A stretch of DNA of 11,385 bases, taken from UHGV virus genome UHGV-0346646; one strand, written 5' to 3'. Of this stretch, positions 939-11,385 are shown one piece after another (the first letter of the stretch is position 1; each line of letters opens with the position of its first letter). The notes under the pieces were generated by a model. The model worked only from the letters and a program-made list of their open reading frames with translations, made no database searches and had not been told where the DNA came from. The translations under genes were made by a program, and so were the position numbers. The DNA comes from a virus.

Positions 939-943
939 TATTT

Positions 944-1177
944 TTATTCTCCGGTGTGGGGCGCTTTATACTGGTCGTGTAATGTCTCTATTTCCTGCAA
1001 CTCATTTATTACAGGCTCAAGAAGCGTTATTAATGCCGTGACAATCCTTGATTTCTGTTTATCACGTTCATTATCTCCAAGCGTTTCAAGACATATGCGC
1101 AATATTTCCAACATATTTTCACTGTGAGAAAGTGCAAGAAATGCGCGGTCTATTGTTTCGTGGTAAATATCACGCAT
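944..1177 (-). CDS. hypothetical protein (77 aa)
   Basis: ATG at 1177-1175 preceded by GGGGA; stop at 944-946 lies 5 nt before the next gene start. Protein-like composition. Confidence 0.5.
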   Translation of the reverse strand: MRDIYHETIDRAFLALSHSENMLEILRICLETLGDNERDKQKSRIVTALITLLEPVINELQEIETLHDQYKAPHTGE

Positions 1178-1178
1178 A

Positions 1179-1613
1179 TTAATCCCCGTCCGTCGTTTTT
1201 CTTAAAATAACCTCTGTCACGAAATCAGCATAATCGGCGGCGATATTCAGTACATCAAGCCCCGTTGATTTATATTCTCTCGTGGAAAGTAAGAAAAAAT
1301 CCGCTCTAATAAGCTCTGGCATTGACGAAAGCGCATCAGCCGCATCATCAGGAACGCCGGAAAATTCCTGTTTCAGGGAATTAAAACGATCATCACGCAT
1401 AACCCCCCCATTTTCACAATCAGCAACAAGAATATTTTTAGCGTCATTCAGCGACCGCGTTGCGATGTATCGGATACATTCCAGGGCGAACTGTGTCCGG
1501 TCTTTCTGTTCTTCTCCCTGCGCAAGCTCTGCCGTGCATTCAATATCAATAAGCGCGTGCATCAGCGTAGTGAGTGCGGCGGCGGCTGCGTCCGGTGTGG
1601 TTTTATTGCACAT
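1179..1613 (-). CDS. hypothetical protein (144 aa from the ATG at 1613; track ORF starts further upstream at 1667)
   Basis: Internal ATG at 1613 is preceded by GGAGGGG at good spacing; the 1667 start has no Shine-Dalgarno. Overlaps the stop of the upstream gene by 11 nt. Function not recognised. Confidence 0.5.
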   Translation of the reverse strand: MCNKTTPDAAAAALTTLMHALIDIECTAELAQGEEQKDRTQFALECIRYIATRSLNDAKNILVADCENGGVMRDDRFNSLKQEFSGVPDDAADALSSMPELIRADFFLLSTREYKSTGLDVLNIAADYADFVTEVILRKTTDGD

Positions 1614-1833
1614 GTACCCCTCCGCATTTTTTTTCGTTAGAAATAAGCGTTCTTCTTTCCTGTTCATCGCTCAGGAATACGCAGACCTCACCGCTAAGGC
1701 GTTTAAGTAAGCCGATGATTGCCCCTGATTCGCTGTCGGTCATCATGCCAGGGTAATCCTCTGCCAGTGCGCAAATAACTTCGATTTGGTGGGCGCGTTC
1801 TGCTGCCTGTTGTAGTGTGATTTCCTGGCTCAT
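1603..1833 (-). CDS. hypothetical protein (76 aa)
   Basis: ATG at 1833-1831 overlaps the stop of the upstream gene (ATGA); GGGGG upstream. Confidence 0.45.
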   Translation of the reverse strand: MSQEITLQQAAERAHQIEVICALAEDYPGMMTDSESGAIIGLLKRLSGEVCVFLSDEQERRTLISNEKKCGGVHVQ

Positions 1834-2030
1834 AAGCCTACCCCCTGACGAATACGGGCAGCAAATACCATCACGCAGCCAGCCGGAGATTGCTGGCGTG
1901 CTTCCTGTTCGCTGGTGGCCTCAATGGTAATCACGCGCGGTTGTGCCGTGCTCAGGGCGATAAAACGCCAGATGTATTTATTCAGGTTGTGCGAGTCCCG
2001 CCCTTGCGGGTGTGTGGTATGATTTAACAT
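1830..2030 (-). CDS. small protein (66 aa), possibly Icd-like; family assignment is tentative
   Basis: ATG at 2030-2028 with GAGG 5-6 nt upstream; first gene of the minus-strand operon, downstream of a strong predicted promoter. It is also the C-terminal 66 codons of the long track ORF 1830..3116, which I consider a read-through artefact. Confidence 0.5.
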   Translation of the reverse strand: MLNHTTHPQGRDSHNLNKYIWRFIALSTAQPRVITIEATSEQEARQQSPAGCVMVFAARIRQGVGL

Positions 2031-2067
2031 AGCTACCTCGATACTTTCGCTATCGTTGGTGGTTAGA

Positions 2068-2100
2068 AGCCCTGCGAGTGGTAACGACACTTGCGGGGCT
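2068..2100. promoter_or_regulatory. 13-bp-arm inverted repeat (AGCCCTGCGAGTG / CACTTGCGGGGCT, 7-nt loop) in the leader of the minus-strand operon
   Basis: Read directly: the arms pair fully if two G-U wobbles are allowed. Sits between the predicted minus-strand promoter and the start at 2030. Confidence 0.4.
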
Positions 2101-2127
2101 TTGCATTTATGCACCTTGATAATCTCA

Positions 2128-2168
2128 AGGTGTAGCCCACTATATGCTTTAGGTGTGGCCCACGTCAA
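2128..2168 (-). promoter_or_regulatory. predicted sigma70 promoter for the minus-strand small-gene operon, overlapped by two direct repeats (AGGTGTAGCCCAC 2128-2140 and AGGTGTGGCCCAC 2151-2163)
   Basis: On the minus strand: -35 TTGACG (2168-2163), 18-bp spacer, -10 TATAGT (2144-2139). The direct repeats overlap the spacer and the start site, as operator sites would. Confidence 0.4.
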
Positions 2169-2170
2169 GG

Positions 2171-2199
2171 GTTTTATTTGTGCTTTTTCTGTGTATACT
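2171..2199 (+). promoter_or_regulatory. possible promoter for the ribbon-helix-helix gene
   Basis: -10 TATACT at 2194-2199; the -35 is weak (GTTTTA region). Divergent from the minus-strand promoter. Confidence 0.3.
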
Positions 2200-2229
2200 G
2201 TCCCCCACCAATCCAACAGAGGAATAGAA

Positions 2230-2409
2230 ATGGCAACGGGTACAACAAACGCAAAATCACAAGCTCTAAAGGCTCGTGTACCACACGAAATAGTAAACGC
2301 CATGGAATCAGTGAAAGAATCAGGCGAAAGCACATCACAATTCATCATTGCGTCAATGCAAGGCGAGATCAAACGCCGCCAGCGCCGCAAGGCCAAAGAG
2401 CAGGAGTAA
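2230..2409 (+). CDS. ribbon-helix-helix (Arc/MetJ/CopG-like) DNA-binding protein, 59 aa
   Basis: ATG at 2230 with AGAGGAA Shine-Dalgarno. Protein MATGTTNAKSQALKARVPHEIVNAMESVKESGESTSQFIIASMQGEIKRRQRRKAKEQE has the strand-helix-helix pattern typical of RHH repressors. Followed by tandem plus-strand terminators. Confidence 0.6.
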   Translation: MATGTTNAKSQALKARVPHEIVNAMESVKESGESTSQFIIASMQGEIKRRQRRKAKEQE

Positions 2410-2466
2410 CCATCACCAGCGCCGTGGTGTGAGTAACTACGGCGCATTGCTATGCAGGACAACACA

Positions 2467-2640
2467 ATGACCGATAAAGAATTGACCAAAACATTATCAC
2501 CGGCACGGAAAAGACGGCGCAGAAAGATAGAGCATGAATCAGAAAGATTCGCGCCATGTGCTTTTGCCCTTGAGCAATTCCTTAAAGAGTACAGGGAAAA
2601 GCGCTCATTGCAGGTATGGCAACGAACTGAACCTGACTGA
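2467..2640 (+). CDS. possible small basic protein (57 aa)
   Basis: ATG at 2467 with a weak AGGA upstream; Lys/Arg-rich (SPARKRRRRK). Lies between the RHH gene and the plus-strand terminators. Weakly supported. Confidence 0.3.
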   Translation: MTDKELTKTLSPARKRRRRKIEHESERFAPCAFALEQFLKEYREKRSLQVWQRTEPD

Positions 2641-2719
2641 TTGCATTGCCCACCAGCCGCAAATGTGGCATTGTTGGCAATGCTCATGCGTTGGGGATAA
2701 CGTGTAGCTTGTGTCGAGG

Positions 2720-2748
2720 GGCCACCGTAGCGGGTGGCCTTTGTTTTG
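2720..2748 (+). terminator. rho-independent terminator
   Basis: Stem GGCCACC / GGTGGCC with loop GTAGCG, followed by TTTGTTTTG. Confidence 0.6.
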
Positions 2749-2843
2749 CCCGTTATTCGGCAATTGTGGCGCTTCTCCACATGGTTGATATAATCCCACT
2801 GCTCAGATTCATTTTTTGCGCAGTAGGTTAATTGTTCACAAAG

Positions 2844-2877
2844 GCGCTCCGGCAACGGGGCGCTTTTTGTTTTTATT
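2844..2877 (+). terminator. rho-independent terminator (second of a tandem pair)
   Basis: Stem GCGCTCCG / CGGGGCGC (one G-U) with loop GCAA, followed by TTTTTGTTTTTATT. Confidence 0.6.
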
Positions 2878-2882
2878 AGTTT

Positions 2883-3116
2883 GTAGAAACCTGACTCAGA
2901 GATAATGCTCATATTCTGATTGCCGTCAGGGGTGTAAGTTAAATTTACTCCCTTTTTATCATCAAACATCTGCAACGCTCTGGCGTTAACAATATTGGTT
3001 TCACTCCCGCCAGTAAGGCCGGAAATAACCGGAATAATTTCGGCAAAATTTTGCAGATTCTGTTTTTCAGGACGAACGAAGCCCCGCCCTTGTTCGGGAG
3101 AATATCCAGTATTCAT
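2883..3116 (-). CDS. BRO-N / antirepressor-like N-terminal domain ORF, probably truncated or degenerate
   Basis: First ~78 codons of track ORF 1830..3116 (…DDKKGVNLTYTPDGNQNMSIISESGFYKLI) resemble the C-terminal half of a BRO-N domain from memory. The similarity ends where the plus-strand terminator at 2844-2877 is encoded; the remaining ~350 codons have Cys/Trp/Arg-rich antisense-like composition. True end unknown. Confidence 0.3.
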
Positions 3117-3168
3117 GGTTAGATCTCTGTATTAGTGGATGGGTGGCGGCTGTGTGCCGCCAGCCTGA

Positions 3169-3357
3169 TTAGTGAACTGCCTCGCAGCTGTCCTTCCATG
3201 CCAGAACTTCGGATAAAGACCAGCCAACGGAACGACCGCCCAGCTTACGCCGTGATGGGAATTGTCCGGCTTTTTCCAGGTGGTACCGACATGAGCGGCT
3301 CAGGCCTGTAAGTTGCTGACATTCTTTTTCACGTATAAAGCGATCTGTGCTTAACAC
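3169..3357 (-). CDS. alpA: AlpA-family (prophage CP4-57-type) transcriptional regulator / excisionase-like HTH protein
   Basis: GTG start at 3357-3355 preceded by GGGGGA. Protein (…QQLTGLSRSCRYHLEKAGQFPSRRKLGGRSVGWSLSEVLAWK) matches the AlpA pattern TG.SR.T.Y…G.FP…KLG.RSVGW..SE…W. Sits next to the integrase, as in P4-like islands. Confidence 0.85.
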   Translation of the reverse strand: MLSTDRFIREKECQQLTGLSRSCRYHLEKAGQFPSRRKLGGRSVGWSLSEVLAWKDSCEAVH

Positions 3358-3640
3358 AATTCCCCCTTTGTTGTTTCTTAAAGAGTCATTGGGTGGATTA
3401 TTGGGTTGGGTTGTGTCGGATTGTGTCAGGGTGTTTGTGGAATGGCAAACACTGGCGGCGGTCGTTTTACAGAAGCAGGGGAAATGAGAATAAAAACTCT
3501 TTTAATTCATTATGATGCAAAGGCATAAAATTTTACTTTTACGCCTTTTTTACATATTTTTAAGAGTGATTCGCCAGTGTATAAAAAAACAGTACACCTA
3601 TAAAAATCAAATGGTTATTACGATGGCTGATTTTTAACCC

Positions 3641-3700
3641 GTTGTTCCATTTTGTTCCTTGTTGTTCGTCGTTGTGTCTCGTTGTTTCACGTTGTCCGCA
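3641..3700. repeat. cluster of short direct repeats (CGTTGTT/CGTTGTC units) between the integrase and alpA
   Basis: Read directly: gttgttccattttgttccttgttgttcgtcgttgtgtctcgttgtttcacgttgtcc. Related TTGTGTC units occur at 3400-3440. Confidence 0.5.
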
Positions 3701-3722
3701 TCCTGAAAAATCGCAAAAAAAA

Positions 3723-4970
3723 TTATATTTCTCTGGCTATTGGCAATGTGGTTACGTTTTCATGTGTTCCCGCCAGTATCCCTAACCGCTCCGTCCACAT
3801 ATCCAGCGCGTCACGTTTCGCATCCAGATAACGGGAATGGTTATAGACTCGTTGCATCCCTGGCATCTGATGACCTGTAAGCTGCTCCACGACGTGAGGA
3901 TCCACGCCTAAATCGTTCAGCATCGTTGTAAAGGTGCGCCGGATGTCATGCAGTGACCAGTGAGGGTGTTTTAGCCTCCTGTGCGCTAATCTGCCGTACT
4001 GCGACACGCTTGTTTCCTGTTTCACTTCCCCCAGCAATAAGCCCGTGTGCCTGTTCTGCTCCACCAGCTGCGTGACGAACGGCAGTATTGCTTCCGGTAT
4101 GGGCCGGAATATTGCCACCTTCGTTTTGCTGTGTTCTTTCGGCACGGTCCAGAGCATTTCGGTAAAATCCCACTCGCTGATCTCCGATAACCTCAGTTCT
4201 ACCGTCCGGCATCCGAAAACAATCAGGAGGCGGATTAGTGCGACGTAGTAAGGGGAAAATATTTTTTTGTCCAGTGCCTGCAATAATTCGCCAAGTTCTT
4301 TGGTGCTTAAGACGCGCTCGCTTATATCCGGTTTTTTCCCAACGTCCGCCACACTCATATCATCAAGAACGTTGCTGATTGCATAGCGCCGCCTCCGGCA
4401 GAACTTAAGCGCCTGTTTGCACGTCTGTAGCAAGAATCCGGCAGTAACAGGCGTTCGCTTTGCCACCTGGTCAAAACAGGCCAGCCAGTGCCGTAGCTCG
4501 CATTTATCCAGCGGCATAGCACCAATGTGCTGTATTACGTGATTATTAAGGCGCTTTTTCAGGGCGGCATAATCCACGCGGTTTTCCTTTGCGTACGACT
4601 CAAGCCAGTAGGTGAGCGCATCGCCAACCGTTACCGGCTTTAACGCTTCCTGTACGGTGTAATTCATTTCATGACGTGGATTTTTCCCCTCTGCCAGCCA
4701 TGCGCGACACTGGGCGGCTTTTTCCCTGGCTGATTTCAGGCTCAGATCAGGATAATTTCCCAGCTTAATGCGTTCCGGTGGTGCCCCCCTTCCCGTTCCG
4801 GCCCTGTAAGTGAAATACCAGGTTAAAAGGCCACTGGTTGAATGCCTGACGCTCAGGTTTCCACCGTCATTAAGAAAGGCTGTTTTTTGGGCGGGTGTGC
4901 CGTTGATTTTCCTCAGCTGTGTATCGCTCAGTTTGTTAAGTGCTCTGCTCATAATTTTGATTCCGGTCAT
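3723..4970 (-). CDS. int: P4-type tyrosine integrase (site-specific recombinase, phage integrase family)
   Basis: Conserved C-terminal catalytic region HDIRRTF…GHQMPGMQRVYNHSRYLD (H-x-x-R and catalytic Tyr context) and an N-terminal arm-binding-type region like P4/CP4-57 integrases. Start is ambiguous: GTG 4973, ATG 4970 or ATG 4952 (MSRALNKLSDTQ…). Confidence 0.9.
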   Translation of the reverse strand: MTGIKIMSRALNKLSDTQLRKINGTPAQKTAFLNDGGNLSVRHSTSGLLTWYFTYRAGTGRGAPPERIKLGNYPDLSLKSAREKAAQCRAWLAEGKNPRHEMNYTVQEALKPVTVGDALTYWLESYAKENRVDYAALKKRLNNHVIQHIGAMPLDKCELRHWLACFDQVAKRTPVTAGFLLQTCKQALKFCRRRRYAISNVLDDMSVADVGKKPDISERVLSTKELGELLQALDKKIFSPYYVALIRLLIVFGCRTVELRLSEISEWDFTEMLWTVPKEHSKTKVAIFRPIPEAILPFVTQLVEQNRHTGLLLGEVKQETSVSQYGRLAHRRLKHPHWSLHDIRRTFTTMLNDLGVDPHVVEQLTGHQMPGMQRVYNHSRYLDAKRDALDMWTERLGILAGTHENVTTLPIAREI

Positions 4971-4972
4971 CA

Positions 4973-5009
4973 CAATTAACTACACCATTAACTACACCGA
5001 TCGTTGCAC
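4973..5009. repeat. direct repeat copy 1 (contains tandem AACTACACC units), immediately upstream of and overlapping the integrase start
   Basis: caattaactacaccattaactacaccgatcgttgcac. A near-identical copy lies 234 bp away at 5207-5242; the flanks share a degenerate ACAACGTG-GAACAA motif. Confidence 0.7.
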
Positions 5010-5206
5010 AAAGGGCTACAACGTGAAACAAGCTGGAACAAGGAAAATCACAAATCTGTTTATAATCAAAAACATAATGAACAACCTGAAACATTATGAA
5101 ACGGCAAAAAACACTAATTGATAAAATATGTCCTTTTATCACTACATCAAGGCAAGCCATTGATTTAATTAAATGATTTGCACTGCAAAAAGTGCTAAAA
5201 ATCGCA

Positions 5207-5242
5207 AATTGACTACACCATTAACTACACCGATCGTTGCAC
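5207..5242. repeat. direct repeat copy 2 of the integrase-upstream repeat
   Basis: aattgactacaccattaactacaccgatcgttgcac; one mismatch against copy 1. Confidence 0.7.
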
Positions 5243-5451
5243 TGTATGAAACAACGTGGAACAAATAGACACAAGAAATATACAGGCGGGTCATCTTTCC
5301 AGGGGGAAGCGCGCCAATTCATGAGGGGCGTTAATGTCGATATGGGGATCCCCATAACGGGGCTACCTGGCTTTTTTCCGGTTAAATGTCAATCAGGCTG
5401 GTGGGTTTTACATACCCTTGATCACCGTAATGATGATCCAGATGTGCGCCT

Positions 5452-5507
5452 TTCCACCAATGGTGGAAAAGCCCACAGCAGGCCGCCCAGCCTCCCCCAA
5501 TGGGGGA
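5452..5507. repeat. pair of related GC-rich palindromes (TTCCACCAATGGTGGAA at 5452-5468; TCCCCCAATGGGGGA at 5493-5507)
   Basis: Read directly; centres 41 bp apart. A third palindrome, ATGGGGATCCCCAT, is at 5342-5355. Candidate protein-binding or recombination core sites in the non-coding junction. Confidence 0.5.
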
Positions 5508-5515
5508 TTGTGGAA

Positions 5516-5684
5516 GAATCAACGGGTTAGGCCTTAATGGGCTGCGTGGTAATTATCAGCATCCAGAATATGACGGGTTATGTTTCCGACCTCTTCAATT
5601 TGAGGTTCCCGAAAATATCAACGGGTTAGGCTGGTTTCCCCGATGTTCGCCGCTGGCGAATTTCGAAAATATCAACCAGTTACC
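5516..5684. repeat. three direct repeats of an ATCAAC(G/C)(G/A)GTTA(G/C)(G/C) unit (5516-5533, 5608-5632, 5662-5684)
   Basis: gaatcaacgggttaggcc; cccgaaaatatcaacgggttaggct; ttcgaaaatatcaaccagttacc. The last copy overlaps the stop of the 93-aa gene. Confidence 0.5.
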
Positions 5685-5961
5685 GCCGCAACCGCTCCGG
5701 CTTCTTCCAGTGGTACGTAATTTTCTCCGTTTCCCGATACAGTGCCACGCGGCGATTGTAGGCCAGCATTTCAAGAACGCGGATCCGTATGTTGCGCATA
5801 TCCACATCATTAAGCTGGATACCATTACGGCGAATCACCTCAGCAACCACACGAACATAATTTTCGGCGGTCACGCTGTCCGGCTGCGTGGTCTGTTCGT
5901 CGGCCTGCTGGCTGATTCCGGCAACGCGGCGGATTAATCGCAGTATTTCGGCTTCTGTCAT
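5680..5961 (-). CDS. hypothetical protein (93 aa), last gene of the packaging-side module
   Basis: ATG at 5961-5959 with GGGGG 5 nt upstream; the track ORF 5680..6159 extends upstream through the cos copy and is not credible there. Protein MTEAEILRLIRRVAGISQQ… has no recognised motif. Confidence 0.5.
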   Translation of the reverse strand: MTEAEILRLIRRVAGISQQADEQTTQPDSVTAENYVRVVAEVIRRNGIQLNDVDMRNIRIRVLEMLAYNRRVALYRETEKITYHWKKPERLRR

Positions 5962-5994
5962 TGTGCCCCCATCGTTCTGATAGTCTGGTGTCGT

Positions 5995-6066
5995 CGGGTC
6001 CTTCCTGGAATTATGGCCCGTTACGGGGCGGCGACCTCGCGCGTTTTCACTATTTATGAAAATTTT
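5995..6066 (+). other. lambda-type cos site, copy 1 (cosN with cohesive-end sequence GGGCGGCGACCT at 6026-6037)
   Basis: gttacgGGGCGGCGACCTcgcgcgttttcactatttatgaaaattttt is near-identical to the lambda genome junction (…GTTACG / GGGCGGCGACCTCGCGGGTTTTCGCTATTTATGAAAATTTTCCGG) as I remember it. Confidence 0.75.
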
Positions 6067-6075
6067 TCGGGATCC

Positions 6076-6172
6076 ATGTCCGGTTTCTCTGCAAGTTAAC
6101 CATATGAAAAATATAAAAACATGCTTTCCATGAACCGGACATGCGCAAAAAACAGACACTAAAACCGGACAT
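6076..6172 (+). promoter_or_regulatory. cosB-like repeats: ATGTCCGGTT (6076-6085, inverted), AT-rich spacer, AACCGGACAT (6134-6143) and AACCGGACAT (6163-6172)
   Basis: One inverted plus two direct 10-bp sites with an A/T-rich stretch between the inverted pair, paralleling lambda cosB (R3 - IHF site I1 - R2 - R1). Lies directly after cosN copy 1. Confidence 0.5.
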
Positions 6173-6240
6173 CGAACCAGTTAACCGAAAGTGTGCACAA
6201 ATCACATGCATTGCTGCGAGTGATTAACAAGTTATCGGCT

Positions 6241-6675
6241 TTACTGTTCTGTATCGGCTGATTGCTCCATGCTGGCACGGCGAACGCTTACGGCATGACG
6301 CCACCCAGCCAGAAAGCCAGCCATTTTATTTCGTGCCTTGCTCACATCTTCCGGTGAATAGCCGTAAATCTGCAAACCTTCATCAAATCGATGTTCTGTT
6401 TCTTCACTGGAGTACTCGTCACGCTCAGATGAAAGCAGCCTGGCAAACATAATTTTTTCCAGCGCACTGGTTTCTACGTGATATCTGATGGCCTCAAGAC
6501 GGCTTTTACCTGAAGACCAAAGCAATGTATGCCCGATGTGATAACCGCCAGACTTTCCGCGATCCGCATTAAGATACGGCATCCCCTGTTTGGTCCATGC
6601 GCGAATAGTGGTTCTGTTAACCTTGAAATGTTCAGCTATTTCCTGCTGACTTACAAAACAAGCTTTATCAATCAT
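6241..6675 (-). CDS. lambda Nu1-like small terminase-type protein (N-terminal winged-HTH DNA-binding domain), 144 aa
   Basis: ATG at 6675. N-terminus VSQQEIAEHFKVNRTTIRAWTKQGMPYLNADRGKSGGYHIGHTLLW aligns by eye with lambda Nu1 KKQLADIFGASIRTIQNWQEQGMPVLRGGGKGNEVLYDSAAVIKW. Shorter than Nu1 (181 aa). Lies about 90 bp downstream (minus strand) of cosN copy 2. Confidence 0.7.
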   Translation of the reverse strand: MIDKACFVSQQEIAEHFKVNRTTIRAWTKQGMPYLNADRGKSGGYHIGHTLLWSSGKSRLEAIRYHVETSALEKIMFARLLSSERDEYSSEETEHRFDEGLQIYGYSPEDVSKARNKMAGFLAGWRHAVSVRRASMEQSADTEQ

Positions 6676-6744
6676 AATGTTACCTTAACTGCATGGTTAA
6701 ATATTAATCAAGTGGTGGTGGTGTCACCTTCACGGAAAAACGTC

Positions 6745-6807
6745 ATAAATAGCGAAAACCCGCGAGGTCGCCGCCCCGTAACGGGCCATAATTCCAGGAA
6801 GGACCCG
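6745..6807 (-). other. lambda-type cos site, copy 2, inverted relative to copy 1 (cohesive-end sequence at 6765-6776 read on the minus strand)
   Basis: Reverse complement reads cgggtccttcctggaattatggcccgttacgGGGCGGCGACCTcgcgggttttcgctatttatg; 47 bp are identical to copy 1 and about 70 bp match with two mismatches. Confidence 0.75.
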
Positions 6808-6808
6808 T

Positions 6809-6830
6809 AAAAAAGCCGGATTTCTCCGGC
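6809..6830 (-). terminator. rho-independent terminator ending the capsid operon
   Basis: Minus-strand hairpin GCCGGA-GAAA-TCCGGC followed by TTTTTT, just after the stop at 6837. Confidence 0.65.
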
Positions 6831-6836
6831 CTTGTC

Positions 6837-7250
6837 TCAGATGGTTTTCAGTATGCGATCGATGTCGCCGTCATCGCCCTGGTTTCTGCCATCGTATGCC
6901 ATGCCAGCTGATACGGCTTGCGGGCTGTGCATGTCCATAAAGTTTTCAAAGGCTGCGGTAAGCTCTGGTGCAACCTTTGGGCGCTCCTGCTCTATGGTCA
7001 TGTTCAGGATTTCACGAGCATTATCGACGCTAATACATGGCACGTTTGCCATTGCACGTAACAGCGGCTGATAGTCTTTATGCTCATGAAGCGCCATAAT
7101 CGCATCAGCGCGCGGCTTGTCCTGCTCTTCCAGTTTGTTTAGTTGATATACGGCCTCATAGGTTGATAAACCTCTGTCAGCCATTGCCCGCGCTTCGGCT
7201 TTAAATTTACTCGCCAGCGGTAGCGTCATGATGCTTTCATTCGTTGCCAT
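6837..7250 (-). CDS. hypothetical protein (137 aa), last gene of the capsid operon; possible scaffold-like or capsid accessory protein (speculative)
   Basis: ATG at 7250 with GGGGG 5 nt upstream; predicted helix-rich and acidic. Function not recognised. Confidence 0.55.
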   Translation of the reverse strand: MATNESIMTLPLASKFKAEARAMADRGLSTYEAVYQLNKLEEQDKPRADAIMALHEHKDYQPLLRAMANVPCISVDNAREILNMTIEQERPKVAPELTAAFENFMDMHSPQAVSAGMAYDGRNQGDDGDIDRILKTI

Positions 7251-7262
7251 CGTTCCCCCTGC

Positions 7263-7598
7263 TTATCGGGCCAGCGGCTGAACGGATACGCCGGAACCCG
7301 CAAAGGCGGCGCATTTTTTCGCATCGGTGTCGACGCTCTCAGGCCAGTTAACGGCGGCAATATTGAATATCCCCGTCTTGTAACACTGTGCTGATTTCTG
7401 CTTTGACGTGTCCACAGGGTACGAGGTCAGATAAACAGCCTTGCCAGATTCCTGACCATCCCACGGCTTAAACTCGCCATTGTCCGCCAGCATCAGCGGG
7501 GTAAATTCCTGAATAACGCCAGCATCAGCGGCAAAATGTACCAGCGTCGTGGCGACCTGCTGACTGCCTGCAAATAACTCAATGTATGGAGTGTCCAT
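7263..7598 (-). CDS. head decoration protein, lambda gpD family
   Basis: TPLMLADNGEFKPWDG…YKTGIFNIAAVNWPES…AKKCAAFAGSGVSV aligns by eye with lambda gpD TPLMLDTSSRKLVAWDG…YKSGTFRYEDVLWPEA…TKKRTAFAGTAISI. Similar length (111 vs 110 aa). GGGGG Shine-Dalgarno. Confidence 0.8.
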   Translation of the reverse strand: MDTPYIELFAGSQQVATTLVHFAADAGVIQEFTPLMLADNGEFKPWDGQESGKAVYLTSYPVDTSKQKSAQCYKTGIFNIAAVNWPESVDTDAKKCAAFAGSGVSVQPLAR

Positions 7599-7609
7599 AG
7601 AATCCCCCG

Positions 7610-8665
7610 TTAACCAATTTTGACGGTAACAAATTTGCGAATATCTGCCGGAACCGGCTGCGGTGCGCTGTGCGTCTGCACGTACTCAATCGCCGGATCG
7701 CCGTCCTCAATCCAGTTTTTCGGGTAAAACATGTTTTGCGTTGCGCCCGTTCTTACTGCGTCCTGATCCATAATCGCACCATAGGCCACCAGCCCTTTAT
7801 TGTTGGTGTTGCCCAGGACAAGCAAATCAGGCTCAAGGAAATATTTTTCTGTGCCGTCGCTGTCAGTGTATTTGCCGGAATAGACGATAAGGGCAATATC
7901 GCCCAGATAGCCTTTAAAGCTCACCACTTCGCCCAGGTTTTTACAGGCCAGCTCTGCGGCGGACTCTGAACCACGGGAAAGATCGTACAGCTCACGGAAT
8001 TTTTTAAAGCTGCGTAACGTTCGCCATACCTCAGCGCCCATAATCATGACGTTTGCGGGGCAACCAGCCTGATCGGCGTATAGTTCGATATCATAGATTG
8101 GATCGTGGGTTTCTTTGTCCTGCTCTGACCATTTTTTCCCGTCGGCCTGCTCTATGATGTTTTTTTCCGGTATCTTCCAGTCGATTTCATAGCGCTCTAT
8201 GCCTTCGCCTTCAATGATGTTTTTTCCGGTCGTTACCGCATTTACCGCCAGCCATTCCACGCGCGCTTTTATGGCGTTTATCTGGCGGCGCATATTGCCA
8301 GTAATCAGGCGCATACGGCGATAGGTAGGGTCGTTAAGCTGTGCCGGATCTTCTCCAGCCATGCGCATGATGGTTTTCGTTGGATCGATTTCGTGCTTTG
8401 GCTTCATGTAGCCAGGTTTAATCGTGCTGGTTTCGTACCCTTTATCGCGCTGAACCTGGCTACCCACCATAGGCGAACAAAACGCCGACATGGTGACTTC
8501 TTCAATGTCCAGGGTATCCAGCATGATGTTTTGCGTGCTGAATGTCGCCACGTTCGGGAAAAACAGCGTGGTAAACAGCGGACTGAATTTAAATTCCGCA
8601 ATATCCCCGCGATTCAGGTACGCAAAAAGCTGGTTAGTGTTAAGTGCCATTGCTTTTACTGTCAT
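7610..8665 (-). CDS. major capsid protein, lambda gpE family
   Basis: 351 aa with FKFSPLFTTLFF, PGYMKPKHE, DPTYRRMR, SFKGYLGDIALIVYSG, YPKNW and GDPAIE motifs matching lambda gpE (FKFDPLFLRLFF, PGYVKPKHE, DPAYRRRR, SYKGMYGDVAIVVYSG, YPKNW, GDPARE) at the same relative positions. Confidence 0.9.
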   Translation of the reverse strand: MTVKAMALNTNQLFAYLNRGDIAEFKFSPLFTTLFFPNVATFSTQNIMLDTLDIEEVTMSAFCSPMVGSQVQRDKGYETSTIKPGYMKPKHEIDPTKTIMRMAGEDPAQLNDPTYRRMRLITGNMRRQINAIKARVEWLAVNAVTTGKNIIEGEGIERYEIDWKIPEKNIIEQADGKKWSEQDKETHDPIYDIELYADQAGCPANVMIMGAEVWRTLRSFKKFRELYDLSRGSESAAELACKNLGEVVSFKGYLGDIALIVYSGKYTDSDGTEKYFLEPDLLVLGNTNNKGLVAYGAIMDQDAVRTGATQNMFYPKNWIEDGDPAIEYVQTHSAPQPVPADIRKFVTVKIG

Positions 8666-8871
8666 TATTCACCCCCGTGAACCTGATTCATACCCAGCGC
8701 CGCGCGTAAATAGGCGCGTACCTGCCAGCCTGTTGACGGCTCAACCATCGCCAGCGGATCAAGTCCTGCCGCAATGCCTGCTTTTACGTTCTGCTGGTGG
8801 CGTTCCTTGAGCGCCTTCACGATGTCGGGGCTTATGTACACCGAAACACCGCCTTTTTTCTCTTCAGCCAT
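8665..8871 (-). CDS. hypothetical protein (68 aa), first gene of the capsid operon
   Basis: ATG at 8871; stop overlaps the capsid gene start by 1 nt (TAATG). Shine-Dalgarno spacing is long (AGAGGA ~12 nt upstream), so the start is uncertain. Confidence 0.45.
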   Translation of the reverse strand: MAEEKKGGVSVYISPDIVKALKERHQQNVKAGIAAGLDPLAMVEPSTGWQVRAYLRAALGMNQVHGGE

Positions 8872-8904
8872 AGTAAGAAATTCCTCTTTGACTTAAAAAA
8901 TCAT

Positions 8905-8953
8905 AACTGGATGTTCATCCAGCTCTGATTATAATCATGATTGCATTTTGTGC
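8905..8953 (-). promoter_or_regulatory. predicted capsid-operon promoter with overlapping palindromes
   Basis: Minus strand: -35 TTGCAC (8953-8948), 16-bp spacer, -10 TATAAT (8931-8926) inside the palindrome GATTATAATC. The perfect inverted repeat CTGGATG-TT-CATCCAG (8905-8920) lies at about +1 to +16. Confidence 0.4.
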
Positions 8954-9036
8954 AATGATGTTGAGTTGCGTTGCAAATTATGAAATGATTATCCCGATCA
9001 TGTGTGTCAGTGCACCAAAAAGCCTCATATGCAAAA

Positions 9037-9073
9037 GCCCGATAAGCCACCTCTGACCTTATCGGGCTTTTTT
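9037..9073. terminator. orphan terminator-like hairpin in the 415-bp intergenic region
   Basis: GCCCGATAAG - 11-nt loop - CTTATCGGGC followed by TTTTTT on the plus strand (AAAA precedes it). No obvious plus-strand gene upstream. Confidence 0.35.
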
Positions 9074-9248
9074 ATCTGCCTGCAAAGATGTCGAACGAAA
9101 ATTAACCACAACCATCATCTTTTTTGCATCAAAACAATTAAAAACAATAAATTACGCTCATGATGATGATGACGATAAAATCACAAAAATGCGCTTTTTT
9201 CCGCGCCTCCCGCCCCGTGTTCAGGCCCACCCCGCCAGGAGGACCCGT

Positions 9249-9271
9249 AAAAAAGCCGGATTGCTCCGGCT
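9249..9271 (-). terminator. rho-independent terminator after the SSB gene
   Basis: Minus-strand hairpin AGCCGGA-GCAA-TCCGGCT followed by TTTTTT. Sequence is near-identical to the terminator module at 6791-6840. Confidence 0.6.
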
Positions 9272-9286
9272 TCTGTCTCTCGTCGC

Positions 9287-9709
9287 TTAAAACGGTATGT
9301 TATCCCCGTACGGATCATCATTCCCCGCCTGTTGTTTTGCCCTGTTCAGCGCGTCAGTAGCCTGGCCCTGTTGACCTTTTTTGCCGCCCAGTCGCGCCGT
9401 TCGCGCACTGATTACACTGTCTGCGATAACCTGCCAGCCCTGCCGCGTTTCTCCGTTCTGCCCAGTCCACTGGCTGATCTGCATGTTACCCGCCACGCTC
9501 AGGAGTTCACCCTTGCGGTGCCTTTCCAGTGCTTCGGCCTGTCTGCCAAATGCCAGGACGGATAACCACATCGTCGCCGTTCCGTCATCTGCCTGGCTGC
9601 ACGGAAGGGGGACCGCCATACGCGCCAGCGTCATCGGTGTGCCCTTGCTGGTCTGTTTTACCTGCGGGTCGTCCACCAGCCGCCCGTAAGCTGCTATCTG
9701 TGCTGTCAT
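9287..9709 (-). CDS. ssb: single-stranded DNA-binding protein (SSB, OB-fold)
   Basis: Aligns by eye with E. coli SSB: G.L..DP.V, W..V..FG..AE, RKG, W.G..G..R. C-terminal acidic tail ends NDDPYGDNIPF (compare SSB …DFDDDIPF). GAGGTGG Shine-Dalgarno. Confidence 0.75.
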   Translation of the reverse strand: MTAQIAAYGRLVDDPQVKQTSKGTPMTLARMAVPLPCSQADDGTATMWLSVLAFGRQAEALERHRKGELLSVAGNMQISQWTGQNGETRQGWQVIADSVISARTARLGGKKGQQGQATDALNRAKQQAGNDDPYGDNIPF

Positions 9710-9765
9710 GATTCCACCTCTCCGGTTTTAACGTTGATGGTTGTTACCTGTTCCGCTTCGGCAAT

Positions 9766-9984
9766 CTACCGCTCTGTCAGCGTGGCAAAATTTGCCGCCG
9801 TCGTGGTCATGAATGCGCTTATCAGTTCGGGATGTGCTTTCGCGTATCCTTCCCCCGCGTGGCGGTCTATCGTTCTGATTGCCACCTTTAAAGCGTGCTC
9901 TGTCATGTCTAACGCGCGATATTTCGGTTCTGTTCTGTCTCTGCGTTTTTTGAGTGATTTATTAAATTTCCCTGAAGTGTGCAT
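9766..9984 (-). CDS. hypothetical small protein (72 aa or shorter from an internal Met)
   Basis: ORF between the origin and ssb; the Shine-Dalgarno is poorly placed, so the start is uncertain. Confidence 0.4.
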   Translation of the reverse strand: MHTSGKFNKSLKKRRDRTEPKYRALDMTEHALKVAIRTIDRHAGEGYAKAHPELISAFMTTTAANFATLTER

Positions 9985-10033
9985 ATTTATTTTTACCCCC
10001 TCGTTTAAAAAGTTTTGAGTTGTGCCTCCCCTT

Positions 10034-10259
10034 GTCTACCTTATCTACCTTAGTGGCCCTCATGCCAGTAATGGCGCGGCTTTCAGCGGGGTAGAGTGCT
10101 TTTATCCACTATCTACCCCGTGTCTACCTCCCTGTCTGATTCAGGTAAAATCAGGTAGAGAGGGTAGATAGTGGGTAGACAGTAAAAAAAGGCTATCTAC
10201 CTAACTTAATGCACTGAATTAAATGTATTTTTCTTTACTCAGGTAGACAGGGTAGACAG
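10034..10259. repeat. iteron cluster, putative replication origin (about 11 copies of GGTAGA(C/G/T)AG in both orientations)
   Basis: TCTACC at 10035, 10044, 10112, 10123 and 10196; GGTAGA at 10089, 10154, 10163, 10174, 10242 and 10251. Immediately downstream of the primase/helicase stop at 10273. Confidence 0.7.
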
Positions 10260-10272
10260 CAATTACAAAAAA

Positions 10273-11385
10273 TTATAAAAACGCGTCGCACTCGTCTGTT
10301 GTTATTGCGTTAGTCTGCGTTACCCCCTTAACTTTCCGCGTAATATATTCATGTCCGTAAACTTTTGCGGCAGGCTTCATAGCCTTTCCAAAGTCATTTA
10401 CGTTTAGCGGTTTGCTCCTGCCTGCGTATGCCATAAACGCCAGATAGACGCGGTAAAGGCTGTTCCTGGTCGTGTACTTCACTGAATCGCCACCGCCCCC
10501 CATCATCAGGCCGCGCGCTTCCTCCAGAAAATTCAGGAACTGGCAAAACTCAATAACCGGATCCGTCTGTTGCTTTATTGCCAGTGCTTCATCACCGTCA
10601 CGCTGTTCCAGTAGTAAAGCCCGTGCCTTCTCAGGGTCGGTAAAGTTCGCCAGCAATCGGCGGATAATGACAGGGATTTCAGCCGCGATCTTTTCCGGTA
10701 GCTCCCTGTCTTTTTCGGCCTCACTGACGATATTGTCGAAACGGAAAATCACGCGACGACGTGCCACACCTCCGGCCCGTTCGGTGAATATCATCGGGTT
10801 ATTGTTGGTCGCCAGCACCACCGCCCTGATTACAGCCGTGAAACGCTTTTCGTATTTCGGGTTAATTTCCACGGGGTCACCGCCCGTGATTTTCTTGATG
10901 CCCGTTCCTTCGCCTGTATATTTCGGCTGGTCAGCCAGGACGATAAGACGACTCCCGACAACCTGCGCACGTCCACCAGCATCATCAAGCGATGTCATTT
11001 CAGCGCTTACCGTGTTCTGTTTCCCTGCCAGAAGGCTGGCTATGTGCGTGAATGTACTTTTACCGCTCCCGCCGTCTCCGGTGGCCTCAATAAACATCTG
11101 CCAGTCGTACCGGTTCGCCATAATCATGTACAGCGCGGCACATATACGCATCATCTTGCGCGGGTCTTTTCCGGCTGCGTGCTCAAGCCATTTATGAAAG
11201 TTTGGCGCGTTATCGCGGATGTTCTCCCCTGGTGCTGGTGGCGTGTACTCAATGCCGTTGTGCGTGGTGATCCAGTTCTCCGGCGTGTGCGGGGAAAATC
11301 CCCCCGTTTTCAGGTCAAGCGCACCATTGGCGAACGGCAGCAAATCGCCGGACGGCTCGCCCATTGGTTCGGCAATAACTTTTAA
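10273..11385 (-). CDS. P4-family phage/plasmid primase C-terminal region with D5_N-like and SF3 helicase (P-loop) domains; 3-prime part only (start lies beyond window end)
   Basis: Walker A GDGGSGKST; upstream D5_N-like LLPFANGALDLKTGGFSPHTPENWIT; Walker B-like LIVLADQ. The frame is open upstream of the first in-window Met to position 11385, so the gene starts outside the window. Confidence 0.85.
   Translation of the reverse strand, partial: LKVIAEPMGEPSGDLLPFANGALDLKTGGFSPHTPENWITTHNGIEYTPPAPGENIRDNAPNFHKWLEHAAGKDPRKMMRICAALYMIMANRYDWQMFIEATGDGGSGKSTFTHIASLLAGKQNTVSAEMTSLDDAGGRAQVVGSRLIVLADQPKYTGEGTGIKKITGGDPVEINPKYEKRFTAVIRAVVLATNNNPMIFTERAGGVARRRVIFRFDNIVSEAEKDRELPEKIAAEIPVIIRRLLANFTDPEKARALLLEQRDGDEALAIKQQTDPVIEFCQFLNFLEEARGLMMGGGGDSVKYTTRNSLYRVYLAFMAYAGRSKPLNVNDFGKAMKPAAKVYGHEYITRKVKGVTQTNAITTDECDAFL

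What the first reader, a model, noticed from the sequence alone, without database searches (positions are those of the whole stretch)
6837..8871. Satellite-type element carries lambda E/D-like capsid shell genes but no portal, large terminase or protease
The operon is 68-aa unknown, gpE-like major capsid, gpD-like decoration, 137-aa unknown. E precedes D, the reverse of lambda. Nothing between the primase and cos resembles a portal, prohead protease or large terminase. An element with its own primase, origin, ssb and cos that encodes only shell components may assemble its own capsid lattice on helper portal, scaffold and tails. The two unknown proteins are candidates for size determination or scaffolding.
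Basis: partly seen in the sequence, partly recalled or inferred. Interest (0 to 1): 0.85.

Follow-up and report, generated by a model that had tools for sequence, protein, structure and literature searches.

The report
Known phage satellite's own capsid genes
This is the capsid-shell gene cluster of a well-studied E. coli phage satellite (the EcCICFT073 family of phage-inducible chromosomal islands); it is real, intact and conserved, but it was described in 2018, and published deletions show the satellite spreads without it, so only its purpose remains open.

Summary
On the minus strand, 8871-6837 holds a four-gene operon: a 68-aa protein, a lambda gpE-type major capsid protein (MCP), a gpD-type decoration protein and a 137-aa protein. 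E precedes D. The element has no portal, protease or large terminase.

The window is the complete, circularly permuted element. It is 97% identical to EcCICFT073, the prototype Gram-negative PICI. The four genes correspond to c1498-c1501, at 93-99% protein identity. The downstream gene is RppA (100% identical), flanked by the known cos1 and cos2 sites. A crystal structure of this MCP exists (PDB 3BQW).

The capsid and decoration genes were reported in 2018. Deleting c1499 or c1500 did not change transfer or lambda interference. Replacing c1498-c1501 with a cargo gene still gave transducing particles.

New here:
- The 137-aa protein carries the C-terminal tail of the 21/Gifsy-type gpC protease-scaffold, so it looks like a short scaffold.
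- All four genes are under purifying selection and the operon is intact in about 11% of complete E. coli genomes.
- It has a conserved promoter with an operator-like palindrome.
- Every marked island used in the published assays, as far as the strain names show, already had c1499 or c1501 disrupted.

Verdict: already known; function unresolved.

The parts
8665..8871 (-). 68-aa protein, homologue of EcCICFT073 c1498 (98.5% identical). Predicted beta-alpha-alpha, ribbon-helix-helix-like topology. Function unknown; possibly a small DNA-binding regulator.
   Evidence: ORF. phrog_3255, unknown function, 8.4e-37. No Pfam hit. AAN79967.1 is the CFT073 copy. AF2 pLDDT 74 with strand 9-13 and helices 15-34 and 47-58. 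No significant Foldseek PDB hit. No homologue in 50,697 phage records. dN/dS 0.13-0.6.
7610..8665 (-). Major capsid protein of the lambda gpE family (HK97 fold), homologue of c1499.
   Evidence: PF03864 at 2e-52. 98.9% identical to CFT073 AAN79968.1. 347 of 350 residues identical to PDB 3BQW. 44% to lambda E, 46.5% to Gifsy-1, 45% to the native CFT073 helper MCP; no phage record reaches 60%. dN/dS 0.06-0.17. Full length in 80 of 80 IMG/VR loci.
7263..7598 (-). Head decoration protein of the lambda gpD family, homologue of c1500.
   Evidence: PF02924 at 1.3e-17. 99.1% identical to the CFT073 copy. 36% to lambda D, 44% to the native helper's D. PDB 1TD0 at 1.5e-13. dN/dS 0.03-0.17.
6837..7250 (-). 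137-aa all-helical protein, probable c1501. Residues ~48-131 are homologous to the extreme C-terminus of the 21/Gifsy-type gpC protease-scaffold (Nu3-equivalent part). It has no protease domain. Best read as a short scaffold or capsid-targeting protein.
   Evidence: phrog_53 'head maturation protease', profile positions 495-567 of 583, E=1.7e-10. Gifsy-1 gpC residues 411-480 of 498, 32% identity. CFT073 helper gpC residues 416-493 of 501, 39% identity, E=3e-11. hhalign probability 96.9%, E=1.9e-10. No similarity to lambda Nu3 or FI. AF2 model all-helical but low confidence, pLDDT 58.6. dN/dS 0.17-0.44.
8880..8990 (-). Operon promoter region: -10 TATAAT, weak -35 TTGCAC, perfect palindrome ATTGCA-N5-TGCAAT (8940-8956) plus a second imperfect copy (8970-8986), then a hairpin with a T-run (8924-8896) just before the ribosome-binding site.
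   Evidence: Sequence. Terminator-like hit. Palindrome search. Conserved in islands whose MCP is only 65-68% identical.
6800..6830 (-). Terminator-like hairpin with a T-run directly after the 137-aa gene. The same 31 nt also follows ssb at 9240-9270.
   Evidence: Direct repeat D3. Sequence.
6730..6807 (-). cos1: cosQ/cosN like lambda (cosN GGGCGGCGACCT at 6776-6765), followed by a non-lambda cosB and then rppA.
   Evidence: Exact cosN match. Inverted repeat I1. cos1 and cos2 are described for EcCICFT073 (PMC6739421; PMC6092414).
6241..6675 (-). RppA (c1503), the redirecting-phage-packaging protein.
   Evidence: 100% identical to the CFT073 copy. PDB 6HLK RppC at 5.3e-31. Role reported in PMC6739421.
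5995..6072 (+). cos2: a second cosQ/cosN copy in inverted orientation (cosN at 6026-6037).
   Evidence: Literature.
5680..5961 (-). 93-aa conserved protein at the end of the island (phrog_1561, unknown function).
   Evidence: 100% identical to the CFT073 copy.
9287..9709 (-). Single-strand DNA-binding protein; end of the replication module upstream of the operon.
   Evidence: PF00436 at 4.9e-15.
10273..11385 (-). C-terminal two-thirds of the primase/helicase. The gene continues at window 642-1, giving an uninterrupted 584 aa (585 codons including the stop) when the window is circularised.
   Evidence: reconstruction; annotation.
3723..4973 (-). Tyrosine integrase of the island. alpA lies at 3357-3169.
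5124..5133 (.). att core AAATATGTCC: the junction of the two island ends (attP form). In chromosomes it lies at the 3' end of phoQ.
   Evidence: blastn against HM670 and CFT073; the two alignment blocks overlap by these 10 bp.

Best explanation
The region is the 'capsid morphogenesis' module (c1498-c1501) of a classical, EcCICFT073-family phage-inducible chromosomal island. That identity is shown and near certain. The module is a matched set taken long ago from a phage 21/Gifsy-type lambdoid head-gene cluster and rearranged. It holds a full-length gpE-type MCP, its gpD-type decoration protein, and a short protein that keeps only the C-terminal tail of the protease-scaffold gpC/Nu3. A small, possibly DNA-binding protein precedes them, and the set has its own conserved promoter with an operator-like palindrome. 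The rest is inferred, at about 40% likelihood. After helper induction the three structural proteins assemble on the helper's portal into shells, either alone or mixed with helper E and D. The helper's protease matures them. The helper terminase, redirected by RppA to cos1, fills them. Because the helper also supplies E, D and scaffold, the module is redundant under laboratory conditions. That would explain why deleting it has no measured effect on transfer or on lambda interference. Its selective value would then lie in conditions not yet assayed, such as helper range, capsid supply or particle properties.
For: Identity: 97.3% nucleotide identity over 97% of the window to CFT073, and 99.9% to HM670, at the same phoQ-roxA site. 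Protein identities to the CFT073 copies are 93-100%. AAN79967.1 and AAN79968.1 are c1498 and c1499. RppA, cos1 and cos2 are present.

Matched set: the MCP, Dec and scaffold tail are about equally diverged from the native helper's proteins, at 45%, 44% and 39%. MCP and Dec stay adjacent in E-then-D order in islands from E. coli, Salmonella, Kluyvera, Cedecea, Kosakonia and Superficieibacter with MCP identity down to 52%.

Scaffold-tail homology.

Selection: dN/dS is 0.03-0.17 for MCP and Dec and 0.17-0.44 for the 137-aa gene. The MCP is intact in 80 of 80 IMG/VR loci. The operon is present at full length in 598 of 5,426 complete E. coli genomes, with different replication and packaging neighbours.

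The MCP folds as a stable protein; a crystal structure exists (3BQW).

Dependence on the helper: no portal, protease or TerL, and a published requirement for helper TerS.
Against: No experiment shows that these proteins enter any particle. Delta-c1499, Delta-c1500, c1499::cat and c1498-c1501::melA islands all transfer. Expressing each post-ori gene alone did not inhibit lambda, except c1503. Packaged DNA was phage-sized with lambda. A module with no measurable phenotype could act in a process unrelated to particle assembly. The 137-aa protein shows no detectable similarity to lambda Nu3, although lambda is a working helper. The AF2 model of the 137-aa protein is low confidence.
Confidence: 0.45

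Rival explanations
1. Capsid size or shape redirection. The island's MCP (like SaPIbov5 Ccm), its short scaffold tail (like SaPI1 CpmB, which shares the helper scaffold's C-terminus) and its decoration protein (like P4 Psu) together divert assembly to small, island-sized heads with 21/Gifsy-type helpers. This would have been missed because the assayed islands carried a disrupted operon.
For: All three kinds of capsid-remodelling protein known from other satellites have a counterpart here (review PMC6893505). The helper's scaffold region has three ~45-aa repeats, whereas the 137-aa protein has about one plus the tail. PmCI172, another Gram-negative PICI with an MCP homologue, makes small heads. 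The published islands were c1501::tetA or c1499::cat. The scaffold tail resembles the native helper's gpC, not lambda's.
Against: With lambda all packaged DNA was phage-sized, and no 'PICI monomer' band appeared on induction of CFT073. The MCP has only small indels relative to T=7 helper MCPs. The 11.4-kb unit fits a lambda-sized head as a tetramer (about 45.5 kb; my arithmetic).
Confidence: 0.2
2. Phage interference. The island's MCP, Dec and scaffold tail poison head assembly of some lambdoid phages, helper or not, as a second line behind RppA. The benefit goes to the host cell rather than to island transfer.
For: Satellites commonly stack redundant interference mechanisms (PMC6893505). The scaffold-tail homology would allow competition with gpC/Nu3 for MCP binding. 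RppA does not act on HK97, so other phages could be the target.
Against: Delta-c1499 and Delta-c1500 did not relieve lambda interference. Delta-c1503 alone fully restored lambda plaques, and none of the other post-ori genes inhibited lambda when expressed singly.
Confidence: 0.12
3. Evolutionary leftover. The operon is a remnant of a former cf-PICI-like or phage ancestor with no present function.
For: [quoted passage not shown]
Against: dN/dS is well below 1 in all four genes. The MCP is intact in 80 of 80 loci, and Dec and the 68-aa gene are intact in nearly all. The operon is kept as a unit while neighbouring modules are swapped. MCP and Dec are conserved across genera at 52-69% identity. 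The promoter is conserved.
Confidence: 0.05
4. Capsid-forming PICI (cf-PICI), or the decayed head region of a lambdoid prophage.
For: Presence of a capsid gene and a decoration gene.
Against: No portal, protease, TerL, head-tail connectors, tail genes or lysis genes anywhere in the complete 11.4-kb element. PICI backbone of int-alpA-primase-ssb-rpp-cos. In a published phylogeny, PICI capsid genes separate almost perfectly from cf-PICI ones (PMC10085698).
Confidence: 0.02

Closest known systems
EcCICFT073 (E. coli CFT073 O-island 51), prototype Gram-negative PICI; genes c1498-c1501, RppA = c1503, cos1/cos2
   Same: Same insertion site (3' end of phoQ), same gene order, 97% nucleotide identity. 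MCP 98.9%, Dec 99.1%, RppA 100% identical. Two inverted cos sites.
   Different: The window lacks the PerC-family regulator that CFT073 carries between ssb and c1498. The ssb-to-primase segment is more diverged (91%). The 137-aa protein is 93.4% identical. A small gene upstream of ssb carries a nonsense codon.
SaPIbov5 Ccm (a satellite-encoded MCP homologue that redirects phi12 capsids)
   Same: A satellite-encoded HK97-fold MCP paralogue of the helper's capsid protein, on a cos-packaged island that lacks portal and terminase.
   Different: Ccm has a clear phenotype (small isometric heads, strong interference). For c1499 none was found, and DNA packaged with lambda is phage-sized. There is no sequence relationship. 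Here the MCP comes with its own decoration protein and scaffold tail.
SaPI1 CpmB (an internal scaffold that shares the helper scaffold's C-terminal capsid-binding end)
   Same: A small helical satellite protein whose C-terminus resembles the C-terminus of the helper's scaffolding protein. The CpmB property is from my own knowledge and from review PMC6893505.
   Different: No binding or size effect has been shown. The similarity to CpmB is an analogy of design, not homology.
cf-PICI EcCIEDL933
   Same: Shares the int-alpA-rep backbone type and encodes capsid protein(s).
   Different: cf-PICIs also encode portal, protease, head-tail connectors, HNH, TerS and TerL, and make their own small capsids. 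None of these is present here.
Helper-embedded PICIs (11capE type)
   Same: Same MCP-then-Dec pair downstream of primase/ssb. Relatives were found here in Cedecea, Kosakonia and a metagenome contig (PMC10111431).
   Different: Those islands sit inside the helper's own E gene and carry an AlpA-like protein plus a full Nu1-like TerS after Dec, instead of the 137-aa protein and Rpp.
Phage 21 / Gifsy-1 head module (gpC protease-scaffold, D, E)
   Same: Source-like family for all three structural genes, at 39-47% identity.
   Different: The order is rearranged to E-D-scaffold tail. The protease and most of the scaffold are missing. No phage record has an MCP at 60% identity or more, and the 68-aa protein has no phage homologue.

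Membership tests
Classical Gram-negative PICI (SatelliteFinder 'Type A': all five core components) | Integrase at one end, site-specific att | tested here: met
   Arm-DNA-bind_3 plus Phage_integrase domains at 4973-3723. 10-bp att core at the 3' end of phoQ.
Classical Gram-negative PICI (SatelliteFinder 'Type A': all five core components) | AlpA-type regulator | tested here: met
   PF05930 at 9.1e-18, coordinates 3357-3169.
Classical Gram-negative PICI (SatelliteFinder 'Type A': all five core components) | Primase-replicase module | tested here: met
   D5_N, DUF5906 and Pox_D5 domains; phrog_864 at 1.2e-126. 584 aa, uninterrupted, across the window ends.
Classical Gram-negative PICI (SatelliteFinder 'Type A': all five core components) | Capsid morphogenesis gene | tested here: met
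   gpE-type MCP, PF03864 at 2e-52. Component defined in PMC10085698.
Classical Gram-negative PICI (SatelliteFinder 'Type A': all five core components) | TerS homologue or Rpp, with cos | tested here: met
   RppA 100% identical to the CFT073 copy; 6HLK at 5.3e-31. Two exact lambda cosN sequences.
Classical Gram-negative PICI (SatelliteFinder 'Type A': all five core components) | No other phage structural or lysis genes; size 10-20 kb | tested here: met
   Complete element of 11.4 kb. Pfam and six-frame searches are negative for portal, protease, TerL, connectors and tail genes.
Classical Gram-negative PICI (SatelliteFinder 'Type A': all five core components) | Helper-dependent induction, packaging and high-frequency transfer | not testable with these tools
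   Shown experimentally for the 97%-identical EcCICFT073 with CFT073 phage 4, lambda and phi80 (PMC6092414). Not shown for this copy.
Capsid-forming PICI (cf-PICI) | Portal, prohead protease, head-tail adaptor/connector and TerL encoded by the island | tested here: not met
   None found in the complete element. Definition.
Lambda gpE major capsid family (PF03864) | Full-length match above the gathering score | tested here: met
   178.7 bits against a cut-off of 22.9, residues 26-349. Lambda 7VI9 at 7.1e-84.
Lambda gpD decoration family (PF02924) | Full-length match above the gathering score | tested here: met
   64.5 bits against a cut-off of 29.1. 1TD0 at 1.5e-13.
gpC/Nu3-type protease-scaffold (S49 peptidase with C-terminal scaffold) | C-terminal scaffold/targeting region | tested here: met
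   hhalign probability 96.9%, E=1.9e-10. 39% identity to the native helper's gpC residues 416-493.
gpC/Nu3-type protease-scaffold (S49 peptidase with C-terminal scaffold) | S49 peptidase domain, or in-frame nesting inside a protease gene | tested here: not met
   No Pfam hit. The protein is 137 aa and stand-alone, placed downstream of D. It is therefore a derivative of the scaffold tail, not a member of the protease family.
gpC/Nu3-type protease-scaffold (S49 peptidase with C-terminal scaffold) | Binds MCP and is required for procapsid assembly | not testable with these tools
   No biochemical data were found in the library.
Ribbon-helix-helix regulators (for the 68-aa protein) | Beta-alpha-alpha fold forming an intertwined dimer; family-profile match | tested here: inconclusive
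   The predicted secondary structure fits. There is no Pfam hit and no significant Foldseek hit with the monomer model.

The most novel reading that the evidence does not exclude
With an intact c1498-c1501 operon and a 21/Gifsy-type helper, such as the native CFT073 prophage, the island builds shells from its own MCP, decoration protein and short scaffold on the helper's portal. These shells may be of altered size. That would be a halfway stage between classical PICIs, which steal whole heads, and cf-PICIs, which steal only tails. It would have gone unseen because, going by the strain names, the islands used in the published transfer assays, and probably in the packaging-size assay too, carried c1501::tetA or c1499::cat.
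Probability: 0.2. Interest if true: 0.65.

Novelty: already known. Interest (0 to 1): 0.22.

Why it matters
As a discovery it adds little. The element is the textbook E. coli PICI, and its capsid and decoration genes, cos sites and Rpp are published. The real open question is why about 11% of complete E. coli genomes, and related islands in other enterobacteria, keep a capsid, decoration and scaffold-tail set under purifying selection when laboratory deletions show no effect. Three points from this work make that question testable: the 137-aa protein is a scaffold-tail derivative closest to the native helper's gpC; the operon has a conserved regulated promoter; and the published assays used islands with the operon already broken. 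An answer would say whether classical PICIs contribute their own shell proteins, which bears on how cf-PICIs evolved.

Tried and rejected
- Rfam scan of the whole window: no RNA family at E<=0.01.
- LexA box upstream of the operon (SaPI operon I is LexA-controlled): only chance-level matches, none near the promoter.
- Lambda Nu3, FI and W as homologues of the 137-aa and 68-aa proteins: no similarity. The equal 68-aa length of the small protein and gpW is coincidence.
- tblastn of the 137-aa and 68-aa proteins against 50,697 phage records: one weak hit and none, respectively.
- phmmer of the 137-aa protein against 1.84 billion representatives: only 9 hits, two of them longer proteins matched at their C-termini. 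This gave little extra reach.
- AF2 model of the 137-aa protein: all-helical, but pLDDT 58.6 is too low for a fold search.
- Foldseek of the 68-aa model against the PDB: nothing significant.
- First genome-contig scan with the single MCP sequence found nothing. The profile scan mostly returned lambda contamination and lambdoid prophages, plus four island loci.
- Search for the circular junction in IMG/VR: no exact match, so there is no independent evidence of the excised form in viromes.
- I first read the integrase in the middle of the window as a sign of two tandem islands. I rejected this once the window proved to be a circular permutation of one island.
- Antitermination control by helper Q (a promoter followed directly by a hairpin and T-run): the hairpin is absent in L061 and L062. 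I kept this only as an idea.
Full report
**What is there.** On the minus strand the window carries a compact four-gene operon:
- 8871-8665, 68 aa
- 8665-7610, 351 aa
- 7598-7263, 111 aa
- 7250-6837, 137 aa

The 351-aa protein is a full-length member of the lambda gpE capsid family (PF03864, E=2e-52; phrog_29, 3.4e-109). The 111-aa protein is a gpD-type decoration protein (PF02924, 1.3e-17).

**The window is one complete island.** A megablast of the whole window against complete E. coli genomes gives 100% coverage at 99.9% identity in two blocks:
- window 1-5133 matches one end of an island lying between phoQ and roxA;
- window 5124-11385 matches the other end.

The two blocks overlap by 10 bp, AAATATGTCC, which is the att core at the 3' end of phoQ. 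Joining the window's ends restores an uninterrupted 584-aa primase. So the window is the circularised, attP form of a single 11.4-kb element. The integrase in the middle of the window is an effect of the permutation, not a second island.

This makes the gene inventory complete. Reading the minus strand around the circle, the order is:
- int, alpA, several small genes, DUF4222, primase, a small gene, ssb;
- the capsid operon;
- cos1, rpp, cos2, and a 93-aa gene.

No ORF matches a portal, prohead protease, large terminase, connector, tail or lysis family. A six-frame tblastn with the lambda and Gifsy-1 head proteins finds only E, D, the Nu1-like HTH of Rpp, and the last ~70 residues of gpC.

**It is EcCICFT073.**
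- The island is 97.3% identical over 97% of its length to the element at the same site in strain CFT073.
- Protein identities to the CFT073 copies are 98.5% (68 aa), 98.9% (MCP), 99.1% (Dec), 93.4% (137 aa), 100% (144-aa protein) and 100% (93 aa).
- The CFT073 MCP is AAN79968.1 and the 68-aa protein is AAN79967.1. These are c1499 and c1498 in the numbering of Fillol-Salom et al. 2018, who named c1499 a putative capsid protein and c1500 (AAN79969.1) a head decoration protein (PMC6092414).
- The 144-aa protein is RppA (c1503). It is related to the solved RppC (6HLK, E=5e-31).
- The two exact lambda cosN sequences in inverted orientation around rpp (6776-6765 and 6026-6037, inside a 78-nt inverted repeat) are the published cos1 and cos2.
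- A crystal structure of this MCP is in the PDB as 3BQW, with 347 of 350 residues identical.
- SatelliteFinder lists 'capsid morphogenesis' as one of five core PICI components. It finds the all-component 'Type A' form almost only in E. coli (PMC10085698).
- Another paper notes a capsid gene in 21 of 29 reference Gram-negative PICIs (PMC10111431).

The feature is therefore already known.

**What experiments already say.**
- Delta-c1499 and Delta-c1500 did not relieve lambda interference and did not change transfer by the resident helper.
- An island with c1499 replaced by cat transfers at 1e5 per ml (native helper), 1e3 (lambda) and 1e6 (phi80).
- The authors state they found no phenotype for c1499.
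- DNA packaged with lambda was phage-sized, and no monomer band appeared on induction of CFT073.
- Of the genes after ori, only c1503 inhibited lambda when expressed alone. Deleting it fully restored plaques.
- An engineered island with the whole c1498-c1501 block replaced by melA was still transduced by phi80 delta-cosN (PMC10460865).

**New point 1: the 137-aa 'unknown' is a scaffold-tail derivative.**
- It matches positions 495-567 of 583 of the PHROG 'head maturation protease' profile (E=1.7e-10).
- It matches residues 411-480 of 498 of Gifsy-1 gpC at 32% identity.
- It matches residues 416-493 of 501 of the gpC homologue of the CFT073 icd prophage at 39% identity, E=3e-11. That prophage sits at the icd site that PMC10111431 gives for EcCICFT073's helper.
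- A profile-profile comparison gives 96.9% probability.
- The shared part is one ~45-aa repeat unit plus the terminal motif F-E-x-F-M-x-x-H-S-P-x-A-V and an acidic D-G-D-x-D stretch. The helper's gpC has three such repeats.
- In phage 21 and lambda this C-terminal portion of gpC is the scaffold (gp6/Nu3), according to the record annotations.
- There is no similarity to lambda's own Nu3 or FI, and no protease domain.
- The AF2 model is all-helical but of low confidence.

By analogy with scaffold C-termini that bind capsid protein in other phages, and with SaPI1 CpmB, I infer that it binds an MCP. This is established knowledge applied by analogy and was not tested here.

**New point 2: the module is selected, not decaying.** Pairwise Nei-Gojobori dN/dS among six E. 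coli alleles (dS 0.04-0.3) is:
- 0.06-0.17 for most MCP pairs (0.27 for the closest pair);
- 0.03-0.17 for Dec;
- 0.17-0.44 for the 137-aa gene;
- 0.13-0.6 for the 68-aa gene.

In 80 IMG/VR loci the MCP is full-length and without stops in 80 of 80. The 68-aa gene is intact in 79, Dec in 78 (the other two are cut by contig ends), and the 137-aa gene in 69 of 75. The four-gene block is present at 80% coverage or more, at 92% identity or more in every such record listed, in 598 of 5,426 complete E. coli genomes, including Nissle 1917 and O157 strains. It keeps its integrity while its neighbours are swapped: primase or RepA helicase upstream, Rpp or a full Nu1-like TerS downstream, and a PerC-family gene present or absent.

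More distant islands in Salmonella, E. coli, Kluyvera, Cedecea, Kosakonia and Superficieibacter keep MCP then Dec in the same order, with MCP identity of 52-69%. They also lack portal, protease and TerL. No phage record has an MCP at 60% identity or more. This is therefore an old, island-specific lineage.

**New point 3: regulation.**
- The operon is bracketed by terminator-like hairpins, after ssb at 9270-9240 and after the 137-aa gene at 6830-6800. These share a 31-nt repeat.
- Upstream of the 68-aa gene lie a TATAAT -10 element, a weak -35, a perfect palindrome ATTGCA-N5-TGCAAT, and a second degenerate copy 30 bp away.
- This stretch is better conserved than the coding sequence in islands with 65-68% MCP identity.
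- No LexA box is present.
- The 68-aa protein is predicted beta-alpha-alpha (pLDDT 74), a ribbon-helix-helix-like topology, but has no family or fold-search support. A regulatory role is a guess.

**A caveat in the published negatives.** The marked islands were 'c1501::tetA' and 'c1499::cat'. By consecutive numbering, c1501 is very probably the 137-aa gene:
- c1498 = AAN79967.1 and c1499 = AAN79968.1;
- c1500 = AAN79969.1;
- c1503 = RppA;
- c1498-c1501 were replaced as one block.

If so, the islands used in the transfer and interference assays, and probably the packaging-size assay as well, already lacked either the MCP or the scaffold-tail gene. The Delta-c1499 and Delta-c1500 mutants were made in the c1501::tetA background. 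The data show the operon is dispensable. They do not show what the intact operon does. This is my inference from strain names; the figure showing the insertion points is not available to me.

**Most likely mechanism.** The identity is shown. The mechanism is inferred, and I rank the readings as follows:
- About 0.4-0.45: the three structural proteins form or join shells nucleated on the helper's portal, which the RppA-redirected helper terminase fills. They are redundant with the helper's own E, D and scaffold under laboratory conditions.
- About 0.2: the intact set redirects capsid size or form with 21-type helpers, combining the logic of Ccm, CpmB and Psu.
- About 0.12: it interferes with head assembly of phages other than lambda.
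- About 0.05: it is a leftover. Selection argues against this.
- About 0.02: it is a cf-PICI or a decayed prophage. The inventory excludes both.

**Verdict.** Novelty: already known. Interest is low, about 0.2. It is kept above zero only because the function of a widely conserved, selected module in the model PICI is still unexplained, and because the scaffold-tail homology and the assay caveat give a concrete way to test it.

Noticed in passing
window 1-11385 (junction 5124-5133; primase 10273-11385 plus 1-642): The window is a circular permutation of one complete 11.4-kb island (attP form). The att core is AAATATGTCC and the break point lies inside the primase gene. The exact junction was not found in IMG/VR.
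   Followed up: yes
window 5995-6072 and 6730-6807: A 78-nt inverted repeat (91% complementary) carries two exact lambda cosN sequences that flank rppA in opposite orientation. These are the published cos1 and cos2. Why the island keeps two is an open question raised in PMC6739421.
   Followed up: partly
window 8880-8990 (minus strand): The promoter region of the capsid operon has a perfect palindrome ATTGCA-N5-TGCAAT (8940-8956), a degenerate second copy (8970-8986), and a hairpin with a T-run just before the first gene. The region is conserved in islands with only 65-68% MCP identity. The regulator is unknown.
   Followed up: partly
window 6800-6830 and 9240-9270: The same 31-nt terminator-like sequence (97% identical) follows both ssb and the 137-aa gene, bracketing the operon. 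It may mark the edges of an exchangeable module.
   Followed up: no
window 4974-5048 and 5207-5281: A 75-nt direct repeat (79% identical) rich in TTAACTACACC motifs lies on both sides of the att core, just upstream of int. These are probably arm-type integrase binding sites.
   Followed up: no
window 9766-9768 (gene 9984-9706, minus strand): The small gene upstream of ssb has a nonsense codon (GAA to TAA at codon 73) relative to strain HM670. This cuts the product from 92 aa to 72 aa and removes the overlap with the ssb start.
   Followed up: yes
window 8872-9286 versus L070 5250-5762 (CFT073), L067 and L068 (O145, O157): The CFT073, O145 and O157 copies carry a PerC-family regulator gene between ssb and the 68-aa gene. 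The window has non-coding sequence with a strong bidirectional hairpin (9026-9078) instead.
   Followed up: partly
L005 (Cedecea), L045 (Kosakonia), L064 (metagenome contig): Helper-embedded islands: a related PICI (int, alpA, primase, MCP, Dec, AlpA-like protein, Nu1-like TerS) sits inside the E capsid gene of a lambdoid prophage, splitting it into 5' and 3' parts. This is the 11capE-type arrangement, seen here in two further genera (Cedecea, Kosakonia).
   Followed up: partly
L065-L069, L061, L062: Mosaicism around an unchanged capsid operon. The replication gene is either a D5-type primase or a RepA/AAA_25 helicase. The packaging gene is either Rpp (144-146 aa) or a full Nu1-like TerS (180-194 aa), once in the opposite orientation (L061).
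   Followed up: partly
proteins P0025, P0029, P0031 (93 aa) versus window 7250-6837: Some alleles of the 137-aa protein have an in-frame 44-residue deletion between two 'RAMA' repeats (residues 21-64). They keep the N-terminus and the scaffold-tail part.
   Followed up: no
protein P0068 (463 aa): One database protein carries PF03864 and PF02924 in a single chain, an MCP-Dec fusion in E-then-D order. It could be a real fusion or an assembly or frameshift artefact (single contig of 3.2 kb).
   Followed up: no
L011-L026 and others: Many lambda-identical capsid hits occur in genome assemblies of unrelated bacteria (Bradyrhizobium, Paenibacillus, Kitasatospora, Akkermansia and others) on short, low-coverage contigs. 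These look like lambda DNA contamination of the assemblies.
   Followed up: no
window 1830-3116 (minus strand): A 428-aa ORF with no family match overlaps two annotated plus-strand genes (YlcI/YnfO-like and a 57-aa gene) and the short Icd-like gene. RefSeq annotates only 66-157 aa of it. Most of it is probably not coding.
   Followed up: partly
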